From the NCBI GenBank assembly GCA_965224025.1, contig OZ245033.1:2656001-2720000 (forward strand): a DNA stretch of 64,000 nucleotides, in the 5' to 3' direction. The position numbers and the translations under genes were made by a program. Below the pieces are notes generated by a model. That model had not been told where the DNA came from. It was given only the letters and a program-made list of their open reading frames with translations, and searched no databases. Of the stretch, positions 21,614-30,920 are shown piece by piece (positions within the stretch are counted from its first letter, which is position 1; every line of letters starts with the position of its first letter). Source of the DNA: Candidatus Multivorans sp. (GTDB taxonomy: Bacteria > Acidobacteriota > Thermoanaerobaculia > Multivoradales > Multivoraceae).

Positions 21614-22648
21614 TCACGGGATCACGGAGACCTTGACCGCACCGGACCGTTTGTCGCCGGCGACTTCGAAGGCGCGCTCGATGTCGTCCAGCGGCACTTC
21701 GTGGGTCAGCAGGCCGGCGTAGTCGCTTCCGGCCGCGGTCAGGATGCGCACCGCCTCCTCGAAGTCCGCTTCGCCGGGGCGGCGCGCGTAGCAGTTGGAC
21801 CACTGAAGGCGTGCCTCCTTGCCCAGGAGGGTCAGAGGATCGAGCGTCAGGGGCCCGAGGAAGACGCCCAGGACGGCGATCGTGCCGCCCGGCGCCAGTG
21901 CCGCCGAGGCCGCATCCATCGTGTCCGCCGTGCCGCCGACCGTCTCGACGACCGCATCGGCGTCGAGGCCGGCCAGATCGTCAGTCGACGCCGCGTCGAG
22001 TGACTCGTGGACGCCGAGCCGCTTCGCCAGGCGCGCCTGGTGCTCGTAGCGGGCCGTGATCGCAATGTCGTCGAACCCCCAGGCGCCCGCGACCGCGGCC
22101 ACCGCCAGGCCGATCGCGCCGGCGCCGAGGATCAACAGCCGTTCGGGCTGCCTGCTGTCGTTGAAGCCGGCCAGACGCAGGCCGTGGACGGCCACCGCGA
22201 AGGGTTCGGCGAGCGCGGCGAGGGCCGGCGGGAGAGTCTCGGGAACCCGGTACAGGCGGTGTGCTGGCACGACCACGGCGTCGGCGAAGCCGCCGGGACG
22301 GCGGAGGCCGTAGAGCTCCAGGTCACGGCAGATGGAGTCCCGGCCTTCGCGGCACGGGCCGCAGTTGCCGCAGGAGGCGAGCGGCTCGACCACGACCGGT
22401 TCGCCGCCGCCCAAGCCCTCGACTTCTGGGCCCAGGGCGTCGACTAGCCCGGCCATCTCATGCCCCATGGTCGAACCCGGGGCGATGATCGGCTGCGGGC
22501 TGTGAACGAGATGCAGATCCGTGCCGCAGAGCCCGCAGGCGGTGATCCGGACGCGGACCTCGCCGGGGCCGGGTTCCGGCAGCGGCCGTACGGCCAGCGC
22601 CACTCTTCCCGGTTCGAGGTAGACGCCGGCGCGCATGGTCGCCGTCAT
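21614..22648 (-). CDS. Zn-dependent medium-chain alcohol dehydrogenase
   Basis: CGLCGTD, GHE, CGNCGPC...C, GAGAIG. Confidence 0.92.
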   Translation of the reverse strand: MTATMRAGVYLEPGRVALAVRPLPEPGPGEVRVRITACGLCGTDLHLVHSPQPIIAPGSTMGHEMAGLVDALGPEVEGLGGGEPVVVEPLASCGNCGPCREGRDSICRDLELYGLRRPGGFADAVVVPAHRLYRVPETLPPALAALAEPFAVAVHGLRLAGFNDSRQPERLLILGAGAIGLAVAAVAGAWGFDDIAITARYEHQARLAKRLGVHESLDAASTDDLAGLDADAVVETVGGTADTMDAASAALAPGGTIAVLGVFLGPLTLDPLTLLGKEARLQWSNCYARRPGEADFEEAVRILTAAGSDYAGLLTHEVPLDDIERAFEVAGDKRSGAVKVSVIP

Positions 22649-23904
22649 GGGGCCGTTCCTTCCTTCCCGTCTCCCAGACACACGGGAAGCGCAAGCAGGA
22701 AGAGCGCCCAGCGCTGGATCTCCGTATCGCGCCAGTTCGCCTCGAACAGGCCCGCGACGTTGAGGGCCAGCAGAGCGAAGAGAACACCCAGATAGAGGTC
22801 CGCGCGGGGTCCGGCTCGCCCTCCCTCGCCGCGGTAGCGCTCGATCGCCGGAGCCGCCGCCGCGCCCATCAGCCACAGGTAGCAAAGCAGCGAAGGGATG
22901 CCGCGACTTGCGGCCATGTGGACGAACGTGTTGTGCAAGTGCTTCACGCGCGCCCGCACGGAGGTCGGATGACGGTAGACCGGGTACCACTCGCGGACCA
23001 TGGCCGGGCCGATGCCTGTGAGCGGCCGGTCCGCGATCATCCGGCCGCCGGCCCACAGCATGCAGAGCCGGTCGTAGTTCGAGGGGTTGCGGACGTCGAC
23101 CACGGACGTGGCGCGTTGCCAGTAGGTCGGCCAGAAGGTGGGCGCCACCGCGGCCAGCGAAACGGCCGCCAGCACCAGGGCGGCGGCGTAGCCCACGAGG
23201 ACCCGGCGACGCTGCAGAGTGAAGGCGGCGGTGGCGACGGCGAAGGCGCCGAGCCAGGCGCTGCGGGTGAGGGTCAAGACGAGCGTTCCGCCGACAATGG
23301 CCAGCACGAGCCAGTTCACCTGCCGGCGCCAACCGTGGCTGCTGGAGACACGCCCGGCGATCAACGCCAGACCGAGCAGGAGCACGCCGGAGAAGGTCAT
23401 GTAGTGCGAGAACGGCCCCGGGATCCGCTGGTGCAGGGGTCCGTAGTCGGTGAAGACGAACTGCGTCAGGCCGTAGACGGCCAGGACCGCCGAGATACCG
23501 ATGACCGCGGCGATCACAACCCTCACCTGCCGTTCGCCCCGGACCAGCAGGAGCGCCAGTGGCAGGGTGAGGACGGAGTAGAGCTGGGAGAGTTCCTGGA
23601 GACTCGTCCCCGGCGCGTAGGAAAGGACCGCCGAGAGGACAAAGCAACCGGTATAGGCGGCCAGGGGGTAGAGGAGCCGCCGCCGTCGCCGGCGATCCTG
23701 GTCGCCGGCTGTGAAGAACAGTCGTCGGCGACTGAACGCGCTCCAGACCAGCGTAAAGAACAGCAGGATGTTCGAGAGCGCGATCCCGAAGGTGGTCACG
23801 AGCTGGCCCAGGAAGAGCCAGAAGCCCGCGTTTCCCCTGGCTTCGCGGCAGGGCCGGGGCACGGCGCGCTCGATCGCCCCCATCGGCCCCTGCGTCCGCT
23901 GCAT
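22645..23904 (-). CDS. O-antigen ligase family membrane protein
   Basis: About 10 TM segments, TLTRSAWLG, R..LW..G..MI.D.PLTGIG, HLHN; the ORF-track start at 23946 runs into the IS end. Confidence 0.85.
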   Translation of the reverse strand: MQRTQGPMGAIERAVPRPCREARGNAGFWLFLGQLVTTFGIALSNILLFFTLVWSAFSRRRLFFTAGDQDRRRRRRLLYPLAAYTGCFVLSAVLSYAPGTSLQELSQLYSVLTLPLALLLVRGERQVRVVIAAVIGISAVLAVYGLTQFVFTDYGPLHQRIPGPFSHYMTFSGVLLLGLALIAGRVSSSHGWRRQVNWLVLAIVGGTLVLTLTRSAWLGAFAVATAAFTLQRRRVLVGYAAALVLAAVSLAAVAPTFWPTYWQRATSVVDVRNPSNYDRLCMLWAGGRMIADRPLTGIGPAMVREWYPVYRHPTSVRARVKHLHNTFVHMAASRGIPSLLCYLWLMGAAAAPAIERYRGEGGRAGPRADLYLGVLFALLALNVAGLFEANWRDTEIQRWALFLLALPVCLGDGKEGTAP

Positions 23905-23991
23905 GGCGGTCAGTCTATGCGGGTCCGGCTCACTGGGACTCTCCACCCTTTAGCAAGTGTGTTTTGGGGAGGCTGCTGCGGGTCAGGGAGG

Positions 23992-25245
23992 TCATGCGAC
24001 CTGGGCATGGCATCGCTTGTTGGGGTCGAAGAGAGTTCGGTCTCGGAGCATGGCGCAGGCGACGCCGAGGAGTCGGTCGACGAGTTGTCTGATGGCGCGT
24101 CCGTGCGTCTTGCCTTCGGCTTTCATGGCGTCGTACTTGGCGCGGCTGATCGGGTCGTGCTGGATGGCGACTCGTCCCCAGTGATAGACGGCGTCGCTGA
24201 GGTGTTCGTTGGCGGCGAGTCGTCGCATGACGATGAGCTTCTTGCCGGACTTGACGGTCACCGGCGCCACTCCGCAGAGGCAACGCAGTGCCTCGTGGTC
24301 TCTGCGGCCCAGGCTTTGATCGGCCTCGGAGAGCAGGGTGGCGAGGCCGACCTTGCCGAGTCCGGGCAGCGACCTGAGGATGGCGGCGTCGCTCGGCTTA
24401 GGGGAGTCGTCGTCGTTTTCCCGTTGGGCCGGGGCCTCGAGTGCGCGGGTCATCCGCTCCAGCCGCTTGTCGGCGTCGGCGAGTTGGCGGCAGACGGTGT
24501 CGAGCACCGGCCGGAGGAGTCCTATGTGTTCGACGGCGGCCTTAACGGTGTCCGGGGAAACGGCGATCGGCTCGGCCCGCAGTTGATCGCGCAGTTGGGC
24601 GGAGGTCAGGCGCCGGATGCGGTGTTCCTTGAGCAGTTTGGCGAGCGTGGCTTCGCGCAGCCGTCGAGCCTTGCCGGGGGTCGGCGCCAGTCGCCACAAG
24701 GCCAGCGCGAAGGGCGCCGACACCTCGTTCTTGACCACGGCGAGAAACTGCGGGTAGTAGCGCCAGAGCTGGTCGCGGACCTGGTTCTCCAGGCGGTTCT
24801 TCTGGCCGACCAACTGCTTGCGGCCGCGGGACACCTCGCGCAGCATGACGATGGCGGCATCGGATGGTTGCACGCGGTTCAGGCACTCGGGGTCGGTGCG
24901 AAGCGCGGCGGCGAGCACCCGTGCATCGCGGCGGTCATCCTTGGCGCCGGCGACGGAGAAGCGGTCCCTGAAGCGGTCGAGCTGCTTGGGGTTGATCGAA
25001 TGGACGGCGAAACCCCGCTCCAGGAGAGTCTCGACCACCGGTCCGTGCGGCACCTCGATGGCGACGCCGATCTCGTCCGGAGACGTCGGTCGGGTATGTC
25101 CAAGGAGCCAGTCGGCCATGGCGGCAAGTCCCTTGCCGCTGTGGTCGAACGCCCGCTCCCCCCTCACCTTGCCGTCCCGATCCAGCACACACACGTGGTG
25201 GGTCTCGGACCCCCAGTCCACGCCGGCGAACCACGTCCTGGTCAT
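23992..25245 (-). CDS. IS110 family recombinase/transposase
   Basis: DEDD motifs GVDWG, AIEVP, KDDRRDA; SLPGLG; GVAPVTVKSGK; start ATG 25245 after AGGAGG. Confidence 0.95.
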   Translation of the reverse strand: MTRTWFAGVDWGSETHHVCVLDRDGKVRGERAFDHSGKGLAAMADWLLGHTRPTSPDEIGVAIEVPHGPVVETLLERGFAVHSINPKQLDRFRDRFSVAGAKDDRRDARVLAAALRTDPECLNRVQPSDAAIVMLREVSRGRKQLVGQKNRLENQVRDQLWRYYPQFLAVVKNEVSAPFALALWRLAPTPGKARRLREATLAKLLKEHRIRRLTSAQLRDQLRAEPIAVSPDTVKAAVEHIGLLRPVLDTVCRQLADADKRLERMTRALEAPAQRENDDDSPKPSDAAILRSLPGLGKVGLATLLSEADQSLGRRDHEALRCLCGVAPVTVKSGKKLIVMRRLAANEHLSDAVYHWGRVAIQHDPISRAKYDAMKAEGKTHGRAIRQLVDRLLGVACAMLRDRTLFDPNKRCHAQVA

Positions 25246-25288
25246 CTCGTCCTCCTTCTCCCTTGCGGTAGTGTTGCCTGGTCGGCAT

Positions 25289-25430
25289 GCCGCGTTGCCT
25301 GCCCGTACCTGTACTGGTGCTCTAAGGCACTGACTCTCCACTGGGCGTCCAACGCGGCGAAGCAGCCAGGGCACGGGTCCCAGCCAGGTGCTCGAAGCAC
25401 AGTGCGCCGGTGGTCGCTCCTGGCTGCTTG
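25289..25430 (-). ncRNA. Predicted bridge RNA (target-binding loop, then donor-binding loop)
   Basis: Two stem-closed loops, each with an inner GTGC/GCAC hairpin flanked by segments matching target or donor; transcript ends unknown. Confidence 0.75.
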
Positions 25431-25645
25431 CCGACCTTCCTTCAGTGACTCCGGCAGGCCGGAAACGCAACCGACCGGCGGTCTCGGCTGCGGAAGCTGC
25501 CGGTCCGGCGGAAAACGGCAGACCGTTTCCCGCCGGACCTTGGAAAACCGGCAAGCCGGTTTCCCACAGCTACCGCAGCCACGACGGCTACTGGTCGATT
25601 CCACCTCTCTCAACGACCCACCAGAATCCACCCGAGAAAGGTACA

Positions 25646-25725
25646 GGTGCGCCGGCGTGCCATCCGTGCGCCCGATGACGGACGCACGGACTGGTTCACG
25701 GGTGGCGCGGATCGCGCCACCCGTG
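25646..25725 (+). repeat. Repeat family A copy carrying the IS110-1 insertion
   Basis: ggtgcgccggcgtgccatccgtgcgcccgatgacggacgcacgga...ggtggcgcggatcgcgccacc starts at the IS core. Confidence 0.88.
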
Positions 25726-25777
25726 TTCTGGCCGGCATCCGCCGCAAGGCGGAATCCGGCTGGGCTCCGAAGGCGGC

Positions 25778-28378
25778 CTACCGTCCCCGGCTCCGCACGC
25801 CCGTTGCCACGAGCCCCGGACGCAGCACTTCGACCCGGATGTCCCTGAGCCCATCCGGGCCGGCCGCCGCGACCGACGGCGGTTCGAAGGCGATCAGGTA
25901 CTGCGAACGAAGAGCGCGCGCAATCTCGCGGTAGATGCGGTCCAGGTCGTCCACCGATTCGGCGGCGTGGTACTGGCCTCCGGTGCGGTCGGCAAGCTTC
26001 CGCAGCGCATCGATCGTCGCCGGGTCGCCTACGCGCAGCGCGATCGGGTAGGTCGCAACGCCGGCCAGCTCGACCTGGGCGAGCACGCGCTCGAAGTCGA
26101 GGTTGCTGTCGGTGTCCGCGCCGTCGCTCAGGATGACGAGAGCCCGCCGGTCCGGCCGTCCGGCGAACGAGGAGACCGCGTAGGCGATGCCGTCGTAGAG
26201 CCGGGTCGCGCCCCAGGCGCGCAGCCCCTCGGCGGCGTAGCGAAGCTGCCGGGCGTCGCCGACAAAGGGCGTCAGCCGTTCGAGATCGTGGTTGAAGACG
26301 AGGAGGCTGGCGGCGTCGCGCTCGGTCAGGACCCGTTCGAAGAAGCGCTGCGCGCTCGTAGCCGCGACCCGTACGCTGCGTCCCAGGGAGCTGGAGACGT
26401 CCATCAGCAGGGCAACGTTCAGCGGCCGGTCCGCGAGGCTGCGGAAGTCATGGACCGGCGCCTCGATGCCCTGGTGAAGAACCCGAAAGTCCCCCGGTCC
26501 GAGGTCCGTCGCCGGGCCGGTCTGCCGGCCGCCGACGGAGACGAGGATGTCGACCAGGCGCACATCGATCTGCTCAGGCGCCCCGGCGCCCAGGAATGCG
26601 AGATCCTCGACCTGCTCGCCGGAGCGGAGCGTGGCCGCGGCGCGAACGAAGCTGAGGGGTAGCCGCAGCCCGGCCGGAACCCGGCAACGGAAGGGTGGCG
26701 CGGTCATCCGCTCGAGCAGGTCCGCGCCCAGGAAGCAATCGACGTGCTCGAGTTCGCGTCCGGACGGCACGTCGACGCGGACGGCCAGGTCGAGCGCCTG
26801 GTCGAGGCGTGCCGGGTCGGGAGGTTCAAGCGCGATCGCGAACGGGCGCTCCTCCCGTTCGACGTCGAGGCCGTGCCGGGCCACGAGCCGCCCCACGCGG
26901 TCAAGGCCACGGAGTTCGATCCGGTGACGCTGCTCCGGCAGATCGATGGCGTGAACGAAGGGCGGCTCGCTGACCGTGGCCACGTTCTCGCCGTCGCGCC
27001 GGAAGACGACCTCGGCGATGCCGGGGCTGGCTGTGGCGCGGGCGGTGAACGTGGCGCCCAGCACCCGGCCGTCCGGCGCCAGAAGTTCGACGCTCGGCAA
27101 CTGGTTCAGGACGATCGTCTCCCGCCGGGTCAGCAGGTGGAGCCCCGGCACGTCGGGCGGTGTGGAAAGCGCCGGCACGTCGACCGTGTTGCTGCTGTGG
27201 AGCAGCCCGCGCCCCAGGCCGTCCTCGGCGCGGAGTTCGAAGCGGTAGGCGCCGGGAGGCAGGCGACGGTAGAAGTCGAGCGCGATGCCCGGCGAACGGT
27301 CACCGGTGTCCGTCGCGTCGACTGGAATGCCGCCGCTGATGTGGTGCGTGACGACGAAGGCGTCGGCGAGCCGGTTGCCGAGGAAGACATCGCCCGTGAT
27401 CGTCACCCGGTCGAGGATCTGGCCGGCGCCGAGTTCGGCGAGATGCTCGGGAGGCAGCCGCAGCCGGCCGCGCATCGCGGTGCGGCGGTTCTCGCTGCCG
27501 AGGGCCTCGAACTCCAGCGAAACACCTGGCATTGCCATGGCAGCGGGATCGAGGACGGCCTCCACGCGCAGGAAGTCGTCGACCCAGCTCGAGGTCCGGT
27601 CTTCGGCCCCGGTCGGTTTCCCTATCCAACCGAGCCGCTCGACGAACCGTCGCCAACCTGCCGCGCGTTCGAGCCGTCGCTGCAACCGGGCGCGTTCGTT
27701 CGCGGTCAGGCAGCGGCGGCGTTCCGCCTGTTCCAGTATCCGGGGCGCGCCGACTCGCGGGGGAGGAGTGGCGTCGTCACTCGGGCTGTCCGAAGCTTTG
27801 GGGGCGAAAGCGAGATCCACGCCGGATTCCGGCGACCACACTCGCATCGATCGGGGGTCGAAGTTCACTTGCTGGACGAACGCGAGCAGGAGTTCGCCCT
27901 CGCCCCGTGGCGGCGGCCGGCCGAGTTGGTGTTCGAGTTGCCATCCGTACCAGGTCCAGATCTCAATCCGGCGCAGGGTCGATTCGCACGGCTCGACCAT
28001 CTGCCGGTCAGCCGGCTTGCCGGCCAGCAGCACGGCGCGCTCCATTGCCGGCGACCGCTCGCGGAGCTGGTCGCGGGCTCGCCGGTTTGCTTGCCAGCGT
28101 TCGAGCAGGCGCGGCGGACGCGCCGCCCAGAAGGCGCGCAGGAAGCGCTCGCGCGCGCCCGGGCCTTCGAGTTGTTCGAAGGCCCGGCGCTCGCGGTCGG
28201 TGAGCAGCGGTTCGACCTCGGCGAACCACTGGGTGTAGAAGTCGGGCAGCCGGGCTTGCGGGCGGCGACTGCCCTGGGCCTCCGTGGGGAGGGCTGCCGA
28301 GAGCAGCACCGTCGCGGCGAACAACGTCGCAGCCGCGATTGGCGGCGCTCCAGCGGCGAGCGCGGGCGACGCGGCCAC
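25778..28378 (-). CDS. Secreted GWxTD-like + Ig-like + VWA domain protein
   Basis: Signal peptide; W..EVEPLLT..ER.AF...RERFLRAFW; C-terminal VWA with LLMDVSSS, GATRLYD, ILSDGAD, LRSQYLI. Confidence 0.82.
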   Translation of the reverse strand: MAASPALAAGAPPIAAATLFAATVLLSAALPTEAQGSRRPQARLPDFYTQWFAEVEPLLTDRERRAFEQLEGPGARERFLRAFWAARPPRLLERWQANRRARDQLRERSPAMERAVLLAGKPADRQMVEPCESTLRRIEIWTWYGWQLEHQLGRPPPRGEGELLLAFVQQVNFDPRSMRVWSPESGVDLAFAPKASDSPSDDATPPPRVGAPRILEQAERRRCLTANERARLQRRLERAAGWRRFVERLGWIGKPTGAEDRTSSWVDDFLRVEAVLDPAAMAMPGVSLEFEALGSENRRTAMRGRLRLPPEHLAELGAGQILDRVTITGDVFLGNRLADAFVVTHHISGGIPVDATDTGDRSPGIALDFYRRLPPGAYRFELRAEDGLGRGLLHSSNTVDVPALSTPPDVPGLHLLTRRETIVLNQLPSVELLAPDGRVLGATFTARATASPGIAEVVFRRDGENVATVSEPPFVHAIDLPEQRHRIELRGLDRVGRLVARHGLDVEREERPFAIALEPPDPARLDQALDLAVRVDVPSGRELEHVDCFLGADLLERMTAPPFRCRVPAGLRLPLSFVRAAATLRSGEQVEDLAFLGAGAPEQIDVRLVDILVSVGGRQTGPATDLGPGDFRVLHQGIEAPVHDFRSLADRPLNVALLMDVSSSLGRSVRVAATSAQRFFERVLTERDAASLLVFNHDLERLTPFVGDARQLRYAAEGLRAWGATRLYDGIAYAVSSFAGRPDRRALVILSDGADTDSNLDFERVLAQVELAGVATYPIALRVGDPATIDALRKLADRTGGQYHAAESVDDLDRIYREIARALRSQYLIAFEPPSVAAAGPDGLRDIRVEVLRPGLVATGVRSRGR

Positions 28379-29600: not shown

Positions 29601-30920
29601 ATGGCAAAGCGGAAGGCGGAGCGTCTGGAAGTCGTTCACCCGGATTGCGCCGGTGTGGACGTAGGCAAGCGCAAGCACTACGTGGCGGTGGCCCCGTCGC
29701 GTTTCGAGCGGCCGGTGCGCAATTTCTCGTCGTTCACGGAGGACCTCGAGGCGATGGCCTCGTGGCTTCAGGAGTGCGGCGTGCGTGAGGTGGCGCTGGA
29801 GTCGACGGGGGTGTACTGGATTCCGGTGTTCGAGGTGCTGGACCGGGCGGGGTTCGAGGTGCATCTGGTGAATCCTCGGGCGACCAAGCAGGTGAGTGGC
29901 CGCAAGAGTGACGTTCTGGACTGCCAGTGGATCCGGCAGTTGATGAGCTACGGGCTCCTGCGCGGTGCGTTTCGCGCGCCGGACGAGTTGTGTCCGCTGC
30001 GTTCGTACACGCGGCAGCGCGCCCAGTTGGTCCGCGACCGCAGCCGCGCGGTGCAGCACATCCAGAAGGCTCTGGTGCAGATGAACGTGCAGTTGGACAA
30101 CGTGCTGAGCGACATCATGGGCAAGACCGGCCAGTTGATCGTGCGCGCGATCGTCGCCGGCGAGCGCGACGGCGCGGCGCTGGCCCGTCACCGGGACGGT
30201 CGCTGCAAGGCTGGTCCGGCTGTGATCGCGGCGAGTTTGCAAGGCAACTGGCGAGACGAGCACCTGTTCGCTCTGGGCCAGGCGCTGGCCCGCTACGACA
30301 TGCTGCAAGGCCAGATCGAGATGTGCGAGAAGCGCATCGACGCCGAGCTCGACGGTCTGGCCCAAGACGGCGTCGAGGACGCGCCGCCGCCCGGTTCGAA
30401 GGCGCGCGAGCGCGCCCTGCGGAAGCGGCTGCATCGCATGCTCGGCGTGGACCTGGTCGCCATTCCGACGGTCGGCGTCGAAACCGCGCTGACCTTCGCC
30501 GCTGAGATCGGCCCGGACCTGTCCCGGTTTCCCTCGCAGGGCAACTTCTGCTCGTGGCTGTGTCTGGCTCCACCGACCAACATCAGCGGCGACAAACGGC
30601 TGAACGGCCCTCCCGTGAAGCAGACCAACCGGGTCGGCCAGGCGCTGCGCCAAGCCGCCACCACAGCCCGCAACAGCAAGACCGCCATCGGAGCCTCTCA
30701 CCGCCGGCGTCTCCAGCACATGGAGAAGGCGAAGGCCATCAAGGCCACCGCTCATCAACTCGGCCGACTGATCTACGCCATGCTGACCCACGGCGAAGAG
30801 TACGTCGAGCGCGACCTCGCCGAAATGGAGGCCGTCCGACGCGAACGACAAATCAGAAACCTGCAGCGTCAGGCCCGCCGCCTGAATCTGGCTCTCGTGC
30901 CGACCGAACATGCCGCCTGA
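29601..30920 (+). CDS. IS110 family recombinase/transposase
   Basis: AGVDVG, ALESTGVYW, RKSDVLDC, IPTVG, WLCLAP..NISG; ATG 29601 after GGAGG. Confidence 0.95.
   Translation: MAKRKAERLEVVHPDCAGVDVGKRKHYVAVAPSRFERPVRNFSSFTEDLEAMASWLQECGVREVALESTGVYWIPVFEVLDRAGFEVHLVNPRATKQVSGRKSDVLDCQWIRQLMSYGLLRGAFRAPDELCPLRSYTRQRAQLVRDRSRAVQHIQKALVQMNVQLDNVLSDIMGKTGQLIVRAIVAGERDGAALARHRDGRCKAGPAVIAASLQGNWRDEHLFALGQALARYDMLQGQIEMCEKRIDAELDGLAQDGVEDAPPPGSKARERALRKRLHRMLGVDLVAIPTVGVETALTFAAEIGPDLSRFPSQGNFCSWLCLAPPTNISGDKRLNGPPVKQTNRVGQALRQAATTARNSKTAIGASHRRRLQHMEKAKAIKATAHQLGRLIYAMLTHGEEYVERDLAEMEAVRRERQIRNLQRQARRLNLALVPTEHAA

What the first reader, a model, noticed from the sequence alone, without database searches (positions are those of the whole stretch)
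23931..25655. IS110-1: complete bridge-RNA code readable from the sequence
Seen (plus strand): rejoined target cactgGGtgcgccgg and circle donor ggtacaGGactctccac. Loop 1 is closed by 25360-70/25419-29 and holds cccag (25379-83, reverse complement of ctgGG), a hairpin, and gtgcgccgg (25402-10). Loop 2 is closed by 25289-97/25350-58 and holds cctgtac (25308-14, reverse complement of gtacaGG), a hairpin, and gactctccac (25332-41). Known: IS621 bridge RNA lies upstream of the recombinase with the target loop before the donor loop, the same order as here on the minus strand. Inference: a programmable recombinase with a CC/GG core.
Basis: partly seen in the sequence, partly recalled or inferred. Interest (0 to 1): 0.8.

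Follow-up and report, generated by a model that had tools for sequence, protein, structure and literature searches.

The report
IS110 insertion sequence with bridge RNA
This is an intact, multi-copy IS110-family jumping gene whose own small RNA carries short guides that match its insertion site and its joined ends, an already known mechanism, here with a CC crossover dinucleotide where the studied examples have CT.

Summary
Window 23938-25647 is a 1710-bp IS110-group element. Its 417-aa DEDD/Ser transposase lies on the minus strand and scores above cut-off for NCBIfam "IS110 family RNA-guided transposase". The left end is 400 nt and the right end 54 nt.

The genome holds 12 full-length copies (97.4-100% identical). 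All sit in the same REP-like target, ccggcg[c/t]a|CC|c[a/g]g.

A 163-nt RNA (25439-25277, minus strand) folds into two internal loops:
- Loop 1 carries CCGGCGCAC, identical to the left target, and CUGGG, complementary to the right target.

This is the strand logic published for IS621. Across 30 orthologous RNAs the stems covary. Across 90 loci the guides change together with about 11 different target sequences. Handshake bases and a promoter-like TTGnnn-N17-TAnnnT across the circle junction are conserved.

It differs from the studied elements in two ways: the core is CC rather than CT, and an extra ~165-nt hairpin-rich segment lies between the left terminus and the RNA.

No RNA, circle or activity data were obtainable. 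Verdict: a real new member of a known kind, of moderate interest.

The parts
23931..23937 (-). Right target half in IS orientation: core copy CC (23937-23936) followed by cagtg. This is the flank next to the right end.
   Evidence: 11 of 12 copies have CC+cag here and 1 (L007) has CC+cgg.
23938..25647 (-). The whole IS110-group element: 1710 bp counting one CC core copy at 25647-25646.
   Evidence: 12 full-length copies at 97.4-100% identity; identical ends in all 12.
23938..23991 (-). Right end (RE), 54 nt. Its last 9 nt, gtggagagt (23946-23938), are the left donor half.
23951..23956 (-). -35-like hexamer TTGCTA in the RE. It lies 17 nt from TACCTT of the left end once the ends are joined.
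   Evidence: TTGnnn-N17-TAnnnT in 17 of 17 distinct junctions. Function is inferred.
23992..25245 (-). Transposase/recombinase CDS, 417 aa. D10, E64, D104, D107 and S333 align with the IS621 catalytic residues.
   Evidence: PF01548 at 1e-33 and PF02371 at 1.3e-12. NF033542 at 175.6 bits against a cut-off of 140..
25250..25255 (-). Ribosome-binding site GGAGGA upstream of the ATG at 25245.
   Evidence: Read from the sequence.
25277..25439 (-). Bridge RNA region, about 163 nt. [quoted passage not shown]
   Evidence: Model R1 finds 16 copies in the genome.
25419..25429 (-). Target-binding loop stem, 5' arm (aagcagccagg).
   Evidence: 6 of 12 pairs of this helix have compensatory changes.
25402..25410 (-). 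Left target guide CCGGCGCAC, identical to the top strand ccggcgcaC (8 nt plus the first core base). U25401 could wobble with the second core position. Position 25404 is C or U among copies.
25388..25400 (-). Conserved hairpin inside the target-binding loop (gtgcttcgagcac).
   Evidence: helix 3.
25379..25383 (-). Right target guide CUGGG, complementary to the top strand CCcag. G25384 adds a pair with the C-variant flank or a wobble with the T-variant flank.
25377..25378 (-). Handshake guide AC of the target-binding loop. It is complementary to donor positions 7 and 6 (T, G) and mismatched with the element's own target.
   Evidence: A pairs with T in 90 of 90 loci. The second base pairs in 86 loci and wobbles in 4. 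The concept comes from PMC11208158.
25360..25370 (-). Target-binding loop stem, 3' arm (cctggctgctt).
25350..25358 (-). Donor-binding loop stem, 5' arm (gccgcgttg).
   Evidence: helix 4.
25332..25341 (-). Left donor guide GUGGAGAGUC, identical to the last 9 nt of the RE plus the first core base.
25317..25330 (-). Conserved hairpin inside the donor-binding loop (gtgccttagagcac).
   Evidence: helix 6, one compensatory pair.
25308..25314 (-). Right donor guide GUACAGG, complementary to CC plus tgtac at the left-end terminus.
25306..25307 (-). Handshake guide UA of the donor-binding loop. U is complementary to target position 7 (A).
   Evidence: the first base is Watson-Crick with target position 7 in 87 of 89 loci through three pair types (U:A, G:C, C:G), and wobbles in 2.
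25289..25297 (-). Donor-binding loop stem, 3' arm (caacgcggc).
25470..25593 (-). Hairpin-rich 124-nt module inside the left end, between the terminus and the bridge RNA. It is also present near the end of an IS21-family element.
   Evidence: The Vicinamibacterales orthologues lack about 165 nt here.
25638..25643 (-). -10-like hexamer TACCTT at the left-end terminus.
25641..25647 (-). Left-end terminus: core CC (25647-25646) plus tgtac, the right donor half.
25648..25690 (-). Left target half ccggcgca (25655-25648), preceded by a GC-rich stem-loop of the REP-like target repeat.

Best explanation
Window 23938-25647 is an intact copy of an IS110-group insertion sequence that moves by bridge-RNA-guided recombination.

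Inferred cycle, by analogy with IS621:
1. The element excises as a circle by recombination between the two CC cores.
2. The abutted right and left ends create a promoter, TTGCTA-N17-TACCTT, that transcribes the left end.
3. The left end contains a ~163-nt bridge RNA (25439-25277, minus strand), and the transposase gene lies downstream of it.
4. The RNA's first internal loop pairs with both strands of the REP-like target CCGGCG[C/T]A-CC-CAG. The left guide CCGGCGCAC pairs with the bottom strand and the right guide CUGGG with the top strand.
5. [quoted passage not shown]
6. The DEDD/Ser recombinase exchanges strands at the CC core.
7. After top-strand exchange, the handshake bases AC and U pair with the newly arrived strands.

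What is shown here:
- The anatomy, the copy ends and the targets.
- Covariation of the stems.
- Covariation of guides with targets, and of handshake bases with targets.
- Conservation of the promoter-like junction motif.

What is inferred: transcription, the circle, catalysis and reprogrammability.
For: Protein:
- PF01548 at 1e-33 and PF02371 at 1.3e-12.
- NF033542 'IS110 family RNA-guided transposase' at 175.6 bits against a cut-off of 140.
- IS621 structure 8wt6 at E = 3.6e-11 over both domains. D10, E64, D104, D107 and S333 align with the residues the paper gives as D11, E60, D102, D105 and S241.
- The GxDW, KDDxRDA and SG motifs are present in 80 of 80 relatives.

Element and target:
- 12 full-length copies at 97.4-100% identity; 10 of 12 have an intact 417-aa ORF.
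- 12 of 12 copies are flanked by ccggcg[c/t]a|CC ... CC|c[a/g]g.
- 44 unoccupied copies of the target exist in the genome.

RNA structure:
- MFE z = -4.35.
- 12 of 34 pairs are compensatory in 30 sequences.
- Covariation score is 0.235 against 0.120 in shuffles, with 0 of 500 shuffles reaching it.

Guides:
- The strand logic and guide lengths match the published rule.
- There are 24 guide classes and about 11 target specificities over 90 loci.
- The exact cognate match of the left target guide has median 8 nt (n = 23), against 3 nt for non-cognate pairs (n = 440).
- For the right target guide the medians are 6.5 nt (n = 22) and 2 nt (n = 396).
- Handshake bases fit in 87 of 89 and 90 of 90 loci.

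Promoter-like motif: present in 17 of 17 distinct junctions, with no sigma-70-like site in the linear sequence. This parallels the junction promoter described for IS621.
Against: There is no direct evidence of function.
- No RNA run holds the stretch.
- Only contigs could be laid, and they cannot show a circle junction.
- Rfam has no family that matches, so the RNA assignment rests on my own alignment.
- The RNA starts about 207 nt from the left-end terminus, against about 45 nt in the Vicinamibacterales orthologues, so transcription from the junction promoter would have to cross a hairpin-rich segment.
- The right target guide is only 5 nt in this copy, which alone would be near chance.
- Some copies sit in targets that mismatch their own guide. 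L006 has a C guide in a T target; L010, L011, L021 and L022 have a U guide in a C target. This needs wobble pairing or RNA supplied in trans.
- The core is CC, not the CT that the IS621 papers describe as nearly invariant at its second base.
- 2 of 80 relatives (L058, L092) lack a parsable RNA and were dropped.
Confidence: 0.93

Rival explanations
1. The element is a genuine bridge-RNA IS, but this lineage is now poorly mobile or immobile. The ~165-nt hairpin-rich segment acquired in the left end would separate the junction promoter from the RNA, leaving the copies as recent fossils.
For: - The distance from the left terminus to the right donor guide is 320-331 nt here, against 161-168 nt in the Vicinamibacterales orthologues.
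- There is no sigma-70-like site in the linear element.
- 2 of 12 copies carry frameshifts.
- Truncated and split copies and a decayed orphan RNA exist.
Against: - All 12 full-length copies and the 91-93% identical relatives carry the segment, yet they occupy many different sites. Transposition therefore continued after the segment was acquired.
- Copies are up to 99.4% identical to one another.
- 10 of 12 ORFs are intact.
- Guides, stems and handshake bases are intact in all 12 copies. Only 4 variable columns fall in the RNA region.
Confidence: 0.08
2. The matches between the left end and the target and ends are DNA-level features, such as subterminal protein-binding repeats or remnants of target capture. 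On this view site choice is made by the protein, not by an RNA guide.
For: - No RNA was observed.
- The target is a repeat with a stem-loop that a protein could read.
- The donor guides are nearly invariant in the clade, so they give little covariation.
Against: - Compensatory changes keep the stems paired across orthologues, which is selection at the RNA level.
- Both guide segments of the target loop change in step with about 11 different targets, while the neighbouring nucleotides stay fixed.
- The donor-loop handshake base covaries with target position 7 through U:A, G:C and C:G.
- The protein family is experimentally RNA-guided (PMC11208160 and PMC11208158, passages read).
Confidence: 0.02
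3. The crossover region is not exactly the CC dinucleotide. Exchange could take place at a single C or at a longer shared stretch, so 'CC core' would be a by-product of how the ends are drawn.
For: - Sequence alone shows only the overlap shared by target and donor.
- In some orthologues the base after the core is T in both target and donor, for example the CCt of the CCtttt targets and the CCt of CCtgtac, so the overlap there is 3 nt.
Against: - In this genome the bases on each side of CC differ between target (a|CC|c) and donor (t|CC|t) in all 12 copies. The shared stretch is therefore exactly 2 nt.
- Both right-hand guides pair with both C's, and both left-hand guides pair with the first C.
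- All 90 loci examined have CC.
Confidence: 0.1

Closest known systems
IS621 of Escherichia coli (IS110 group; Durrant et al. 2024 PMC11208160; Hiraizumi et al. 2024 PMC11208158; passages read)
   Same: - DEDD RuvC-like domain plus a Tnp domain with a catalytic Ser.
- No long terminal inverted repeats, and a dinucleotide core at both ends.
- Long left end and short right end.
- Bridge RNA in the left end, upstream of the gene, with the target loop before the donor loop.
[quoted passage not shown]
- Handshake guides 3' of the right-hand guides.
[quoted passage not shown]
- The target is a REP-type repeat.
   Different: - The protein is only distantly related (E = 3.6e-11) and longer, 417 against 326 aa.
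- The core is CC instead of CT.
- The loop after the catalytic Glu reads E[V/T]P[H/R/S]GP here, against EATGT in the IS621 chain.
- The left end is 400 nt against 191 bp, with an extra hairpin-rich segment before the RNA.
- Nothing has been tested experimentally here.
ISPpu10 of Pseudomonas putida (bioRxiv 10.64898/2026.03.19.712850; abstract and passages read)
   Same: - All insertions lie in copies of one REP sequence whose GC-rich 5' extension forms a stem-loop.
- A junction promoter P_junc spans the core.
- A C-to-U guide change is tolerated through G.U wobble. That matches the natural C/U variant of the left target guide here, where U-guide copies sit in both target variants (4 and 4) and C-guide copies almost only in the C target (24 and 1).
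   Different: - CT core.
- Different host phylum.
- Activity, the circle and the role of the stem-loop were shown experimentally there. Here I only show that 91% of 44 empty sites and 100% of 17 occupied sites fold at -15 kcal/mol or lower, against 24% of 500 random windows.
IS622/ISCro4 (bioRxiv 10.1101/2025.05.14.653916; passages read)
   Same: Same two-loop RNA with handshake guides. The PDB chain 9t56 'ISCro4 transposase' matches the Tnp half of this protein at E = 2.6e-9.
   Different: It is a close relative of IS621 (88% by that paper) with a CT core and was engineered for human cells. This element is a distant lineage from Acidobacteriota-type genomes.
IS1111-group elements with seekRNA (ISPpu9, PMC12288879, passages read; Siddiquee et al. 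PMC11187229, passages read)
   Same: A DEDD transposase of the same superfamily, RNA-guided site choice, a circular intermediate joined at a dinucleotide, and REP targets.
   Different: In the IS1111 group the non-coding RNA region lies downstream of the gene, the subterminal inverted repeats are long, and the order of the strand-matching segments is reversed. Here the RNA is upstream and the left end is long, so the element belongs to the IS110 group.

Membership tests
IS110 family (IS110 group) bridge-RNA insertion sequences | Transposase with an N-terminal DEDD RuvC-like domain (PF01548) and a C-terminal Tnp domain (PF02371) | tested here: met
   PF01548 at 1e-33 (residues 7-165) and PF02371 at 1.3e-12 (residues 288-371). 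NF033542 at 175.6 bits against a cut-off of 140.
IS110 family (IS110 group) bridge-RNA insertion sequences | Catalytic D, E, D, D and Ser residues (IS621 D11, E60, D102, D105, S241) | tested here: met
   The alignment to 8wt6 places D10, E64, D104, D107 and S333 (numbering) opposite them. The residue list comes from PMC11208158. The motifs are kept in 80 of 80 relatives, and the Glu motif was found by my pattern in 66 of 80.
IS110 family (IS110 group) bridge-RNA insertion sequences | No long terminal inverted repeats; the same dinucleotide core at both element boundaries; site-specific insertion | tested here: met
   all 12 copies are bounded by CC and lie in the same target. By eye there is a 5-bp subterminal inverted repeat, AAAGG...CCTTT, flanking the donor region.
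IS110 family (IS110 group) bridge-RNA insertion sequences | Long left end and short right end, with a structured ncRNA in the left end upstream of the gene | tested here: met
   The left end is 400 nt and the right end 54 nt. The RNA is supported.
IS110 family (IS110 group) bridge-RNA insertion sequences | Two internal loops. The 5' side pairs with the bottom strand (8-9 nt) and the 3' side with the top strand (4-7 nt), of the target in the first loop and of the donor in the second. The core is included. | tested here: met
   The target loop has 9 and 5 nt and the donor loop 10 and 7 nt. The right-hand guides cover both core bases and the left-hand guides cover the first.
IS110 family (IS110 group) bridge-RNA insertion sequences | Guides covary with target sequences among orthologues | tested here: met
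   cognate against non-cognate median exact match is 8 against 3 nt for the left target guide, and 6.5 against 2 nt for the right target guide.
IS110 family (IS110 group) bridge-RNA insertion sequences | Handshake guides 3' of the right-hand guides, complementary to position 7 of the other substrate | tested here: met
   87 of 89 loci for the donor loop against the target, and 90 of 90 for the target loop against the donor.
IS110 family (IS110 group) bridge-RNA insertion sequences | [quoted passage not shown] | tested here: inconclusive
   The TTGnnn-N17-TAnnnT motif is conserved in 17 of 17 distinct junctions, and no such site is in the linear element. Promoter activity was not tested, and acidobacterial promoters are poorly known.
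IS110 family (IS110 group) bridge-RNA insertion sequences | Circular double-stranded intermediate and RNA bound by the recombinase | not testable with these tools
   Only assembled contigs were available and there were no RNA runs.
IS621-like subgroup | CT core dinucleotide with a nearly invariant T at the second position | tested here: not met
   The core is CC in all 12 copies and in all 90 loci parsed. The CT statement is from PMC11208158.
IS1111 group (seekRNA downstream of the gene) | Long right end carrying the RNA, and 7-17-bp subterminal inverted repeats | tested here: not met
   The right end is 54 nt and the RNA lies in the left end. The definition is from PMC11208160.

The most novel reading that the evidence does not exclude
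This element would represent a natural lineage of bridge recombinases that exchange strands at a CC core, whereas all experimentally studied IS110/IS1111 elements use CT (AG on the other strand).
- The lineage is found in Thermoanaerobaculia and Vicinamibacterales MAGs and a few other records.
- The loop following the catalytic Glu is different: E[V/T]P[H/R/S]GP.
- At least 11 natural reprogrammings of the target loop are visible.

If the recombinase really requires C at the second core position, it would open target sites closed to IS621-type enzymes. It would also give a natural experiment on how the protein reads the core.

Two secondary points:
- The natural C/U variant of the left target guide widens the target range by wobble pairing.
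- The left end has taken up a hairpin module that it shares with an IS21 element.
Probability: 0.35. Interest if true: 0.55.

Novelty: new member of a known kind. Interest (0 to 1): 0.35.

Why it matters
The element confirms, in a distant high-GC lineage and from sequence alone, the whole published bridge-RNA rule set: strand logic, core inclusion, handshake bases, junction promoter and a stem-loop REP target. It also supplies a ready series of about 11 naturally reprogrammed orthologues.

The practical interest is the CC core. The studied recombinases prefer CT, and only changes at the first position have been tested, according to the passages I read. A CC-core enzyme would enlarge the set of addressable sites.

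For genome annotation, it explains 16 repeats of the RNA, about 17 occupied sites and 44 empty REP-type sites in this genome.

Tried and rejected
Rfam: searched over 23500-26100 at E up to 1. It gave only two chance-level matches, mir-4660 at E = 0.68 and Cgb105 at E = 0.21. Both lie in the hairpin module and are far below their gathering scores. No bridge-RNA family matched.

Promoter scan: the sigma-70 scan of the linear element found 0 sites, and 2 terminator-like sites on the plus strand inside the CDS, as many as shuffles give.

Sequencing runs: no RNA holder is listed, which says nothing on expression. Contigs of 4 runs were laid and showed no circle junction, which contigs could not be expected to show. 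One contig in each of X1 and X2 (the same sample) joins 23930 to 25814 with 21 other letters between. It comes from a relative (6 of 139 and 19 of 230 letters differ) that lacks the IS together with 166 nt of the REP-bearing flank. It is therefore not a precise empty site and does not test the boundaries.

Hairpin module: I asked whether the solo copies of the 124-nt module were left ends of another IS110 element. They are not. They lie next to an IstB (IS21) gene. The first frames I scanned gave no Pfam family.

Orphan RNA: the copy in L017 is a truncated, mutated fragment.

LTG polymorphism: the link between the C/U variant of the left target guide and the C/T target variant gives Fisher p = 0.0076. 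The copies are related and the RNA can act in trans, so I treat this as suggestive only.

Rows dropped:
- L058 and L092 were left out of alignment A1 and the guide tables. In L058 the 5' half of the target loop is replaced; L092 has no homologous RNA.
- L094 lacks the left flank.
- About 20 loci end before the right end. The counts of n reflect this.

Literature: two searches for a CC core in IS110 papers found none.

One search was an unfinished script that printed only the element's ends.
Full report
**What is in the sequence**

On the minus strand an ORF runs from 25245 to 23992 (417 aa), preceded by GGAGGA.
- It carries DEDD_Tnp_IS110 (PF01548, 1e-33) and Transposase_20 (PF02371, 1.3e-12).
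- It passes the curated cut-off of NCBIfam NF033542, "IS110 family RNA-guided transposase", with 175.6 bits against 140.
- Its nearest solved structure is the IS621 transposase 8wt6 (E = 3.6e-11, both domains). In that alignment D10, E64, D104, D107 and S333 (numbering) lie opposite the residues that Hiraizumi et al. name as catalytic: D11, E60, D102, D105 and S241 (PMC11208158, passages read).

**Ends, copies and target**

A search of the window's own genome with 23938-25647 gives 12 full-length copies at 97.4-100% identity, plus truncated ones. Ten of the 12 have an intact 417-aa ORF; L009 and L012 carry frameshifts.

Read in the orientation of the transposase, all 12 copies begin CC-TGTACCTTTC and end AAAGGGTGGAGAGT. 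All 12 are preceded by ccggcg[c/t]a. They are followed by CC-cag in 11 copies and by CC-cgg in one.

The element is 1710 bp with one core copy. The stretch shared by target and donor is exactly CC, because the neighbouring bases differ (a|CC|c against t|CC|t).

The genome holds 44 unoccupied copies of CCGGCG[C/T]ACCCAG and 17 left-end junctions. The target is a REP-like repeat whose GC-rich stem-loop lies 5' of, and partly inside, the left target half. Of the 42-nt windows, 91% of empty sites and 100% of occupied sites fold at -15 kcal/mol or lower, against 24% of 500 random windows.

**The RNA**

The minus strand 25439-25277 folds with z = -4.35, and none of 200 shuffles folds as well.

I collected 80 loci that encode relatives of the transposase. 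By their record titles they fall into these groups:
- 91-93% identity: Candidatus Multivorans MAGs.
- 77% identity: one further Candidatus Multivorans MAG.
- 65% identity: other Thermoanaerobaculia MAGs.
- 56-60% identity: mostly Vicinamibacterales MAGs, plus single records titled Azospirillum canadense, a Gammaproteobacteria MAG, an Acidobacteria MAG and a Bifidobacteriaceae MAG.

The 230 nt upstream of the genes reduce to 32 distinct sequences, the window's included. I dropped two with a broken or absent RNA (L058, L092) and aligned 30.
- RNAalifold returns the same architecture, with 34 pairs of which 12 have compensatory changes.
- On that structure 98.0% of cells pair, against 92.0% in column shuffles (0 of 500 reach it) and 32-43% when partners are slid by 1-3 columns.
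- The covariation score is 0.235 against 0.120 (0 of 500).
- The sequences are related and the structure was derived from them, so these controls are generous. The compensatory pairs in five of the six helices are still clear.
- A covariance model built from the alignment finds 16 copies in the own genome. It finds matches in 3 of 150 other genomes sampled from the phylum, a patchy spread as expected of an insertion sequence.

**The guide code**

In the first loop the 5' segment CCGGCGCAC (25410-25402) is identical to the top strand of the left target plus the first core base. The 3' segment CUGGG (25383-25379) is complementary to the core plus cag.

In the second loop GUGGAGAGUC (25341-25332) is identical to the last 9 nt of the right end plus the first core base. 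GUACAGG (25314-25308) is complementary to the core plus tgtac of the left end.

[quoted passage not shown] They place the target loop first and include the core in the pairings (PMC11208160, passages read). The element fits on every point.

**Natural reprogramming**

In the alignment the two guide segments of the first loop are the most variable columns, lying between invariant neighbours. I parsed the guides and located the element ends in 90 loci: 12 own copies and 78 relatives.
- There are 24 guide classes and about 11 distinct targets, all with a CC core.
- Examples of rejoined target sequences are GGGGTC-CC-TTTTC, GCGATC-CC-ATTTG, GTGGACG-CC-TCCCC, TTCGTC-CC-CTCCC and AGCGGAT-CC-ACTTG. 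Each is matched by its own guides.
- The exact match between a left target guide and its own flank has median 8 nt (n = 23 classes), against 3 nt for other classes' flanks (n = 440 pairs).
- For the right target guide the medians are 6.5 nt (n = 22) and 2 nt (n = 396), where 2 is the shared core.
- Exceptions exist and are listed. Some have single mismatches. L072, L089 and L090 have a right flank that does not fit; in two of them the flank looks like another copy's left end.

**Handshake bases**

Hiraizumi et al. describe bases just 3' of the right-hand guides that pair, after top-strand exchange, with position 7 of the other substrate.
- The base after GUACAGG is complementary to the last base of the left target in 87 of 89 loci and wobbles in 2. 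It does so through three pair types: U:A, G:C and C:G.
- The bases AC (AU in 4 loci) after the right target guide pair with the last two bases (GT) of the right end in all 90 loci.
- Both are mismatched with their own substrate before exchange in nearly all loci.

**Promoter**

The linear element has no sigma-70-like site. When right and left ends are abutted, TTGCTA (23956-23951) lies 17 nt from TACCTT (25643-25638).

The same TTGnnn-N17-TAnnnT arrangement is found in 17 of 17 distinct junctions of the relatives, with TTGACA or TTGCAA in several. This parallels the junction promoter reported for IS621 and ISPpu10. Its activity here is inferred.

**What differs from the studied elements**

1. 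The core is CC. The IS621 papers describe CT, with the T almost invariant and read by the main chain at G63, and they tested only AT, GT and TT. ISPpu10 uses CT and ISPpu9 uses AG, the same dinucleotide on the other strand. The loop after the catalytic Glu is E[V/T]P[H/R/S]GP in this lineage, against EATGT in the IS621 chain. Whether that explains the core is unknown. Two literature searches found no IS110 paper that mentions a CC core, but I could not see supplements.
2. The distance from the left terminus to the right donor guide is 320-331 nt in this element and its Thermoanaerobaculia relatives, against 161-168 nt in the others. Part of the extra segment (25593-25470) recurs at 86-88% identity beside the IstB gene of an IS21-family element.
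3. Position 25404 of the left target guide is C in 8 of the 12 own copies and U in 4, and the matching target position is C or T. Taken together with the closest relatives, C-guide copies sit in 24 C targets and 1 T target, and U-guide copies in 4 and 4 (Fisher p = 0.0076, copies not independent). That fits U pairing with either G or A, and the ISPpu10 report that a C-to-U guide change is tolerated by wobble.

**Verdict**

The element is a member of the IS110 group of bridge-RNA insertion sequences. It fails only the CT-core feature of the IS621-like subgroup.

The mechanism is known, and NCBI's annotation model already names the protein RNA-guided, so a specialist would not be surprised. The interest lies in the CC core, in the clean natural series of reprogrammed guides, and in the left-end module.

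Expression, the circle and activity remain untested. No RNA runs were listed, and only contigs could be laid.

Noticed in passing
window about 29649-30083 (+), = G000:C1:2685649-2686083: A second, different IS110-family transposase family is present. It has about 15 copies in the genome at 92.5 bits to PF01548. The bridge-RNA model R1 does not hit it, so it should carry a different guide RNA.
   Followed up: no
window 25470-25593 (minus strand); L018:1501-1623: A 124-nt hairpin-rich module in the left end of the IS recurs at 86-88% identity near the end of an IS21-family element (IstB PF01695 at 2.6e-77, L018:435-1448). It lies in the opposite orientation relative to the transposase genes. Two unrelated mobile elements therefore share a non-coding module of unknown role.
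   Followed up: partly
G000:C1, 44 empty sites (list); window 25648-25690: The target is a REP-like repeat family with at least two forms of GC-rich stem-loop 5' of CCGGCGCA-CC-CAGT. One form has gccggcg-ggga-cgccggc directly adjacent. The other has gtgcgcccg-tcat-cgggcgcac further upstream, as at the window copy. Some sites occur in tandem within 35 nt.
   Followed up: partly
L017:1495-1701 (G000:C1:4322363-4322573): An orphan bridge-RNA fragment without a transposase gene. It is truncated in the donor-loop stem, and its right donor guide is mutated to GUGCAGG. It looks like a decayed remnant.
   Followed up: yes
G000:C1:5044245-5045405 and G000:C1:13083-13637: One IS copy is split near IS position 554 into two halves. 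They lie about 15 kb apart if contig C1 is circular. A copy of the second IS110 family lies next to one half. This points to a later insertion or rearrangement.
   Followed up: no
L013, L014 (G000:C1:3853427-3855044 and 598849-600478): Two copies lack IS positions about 62-141 of the left end, and their first ~61 nt are only 87-91% identical to the rest of the family. They carry a variant left end with an internal deletion in the hairpin segment, yet keep an intact bridge RNA.
   Followed up: no
window 22645-23946 (-) and 25778-28378 (-): The IS sits between two minus-strand ORFs. The long ORF call for the downstream gene (433 aa, start at 23946) runs 9 nt into the IS right end, so its true start is probably an internal Met. 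In the contigs of runs X1 and X2, a relative has this intergenic region without the IS and without the REP flank.
   Followed up: partly
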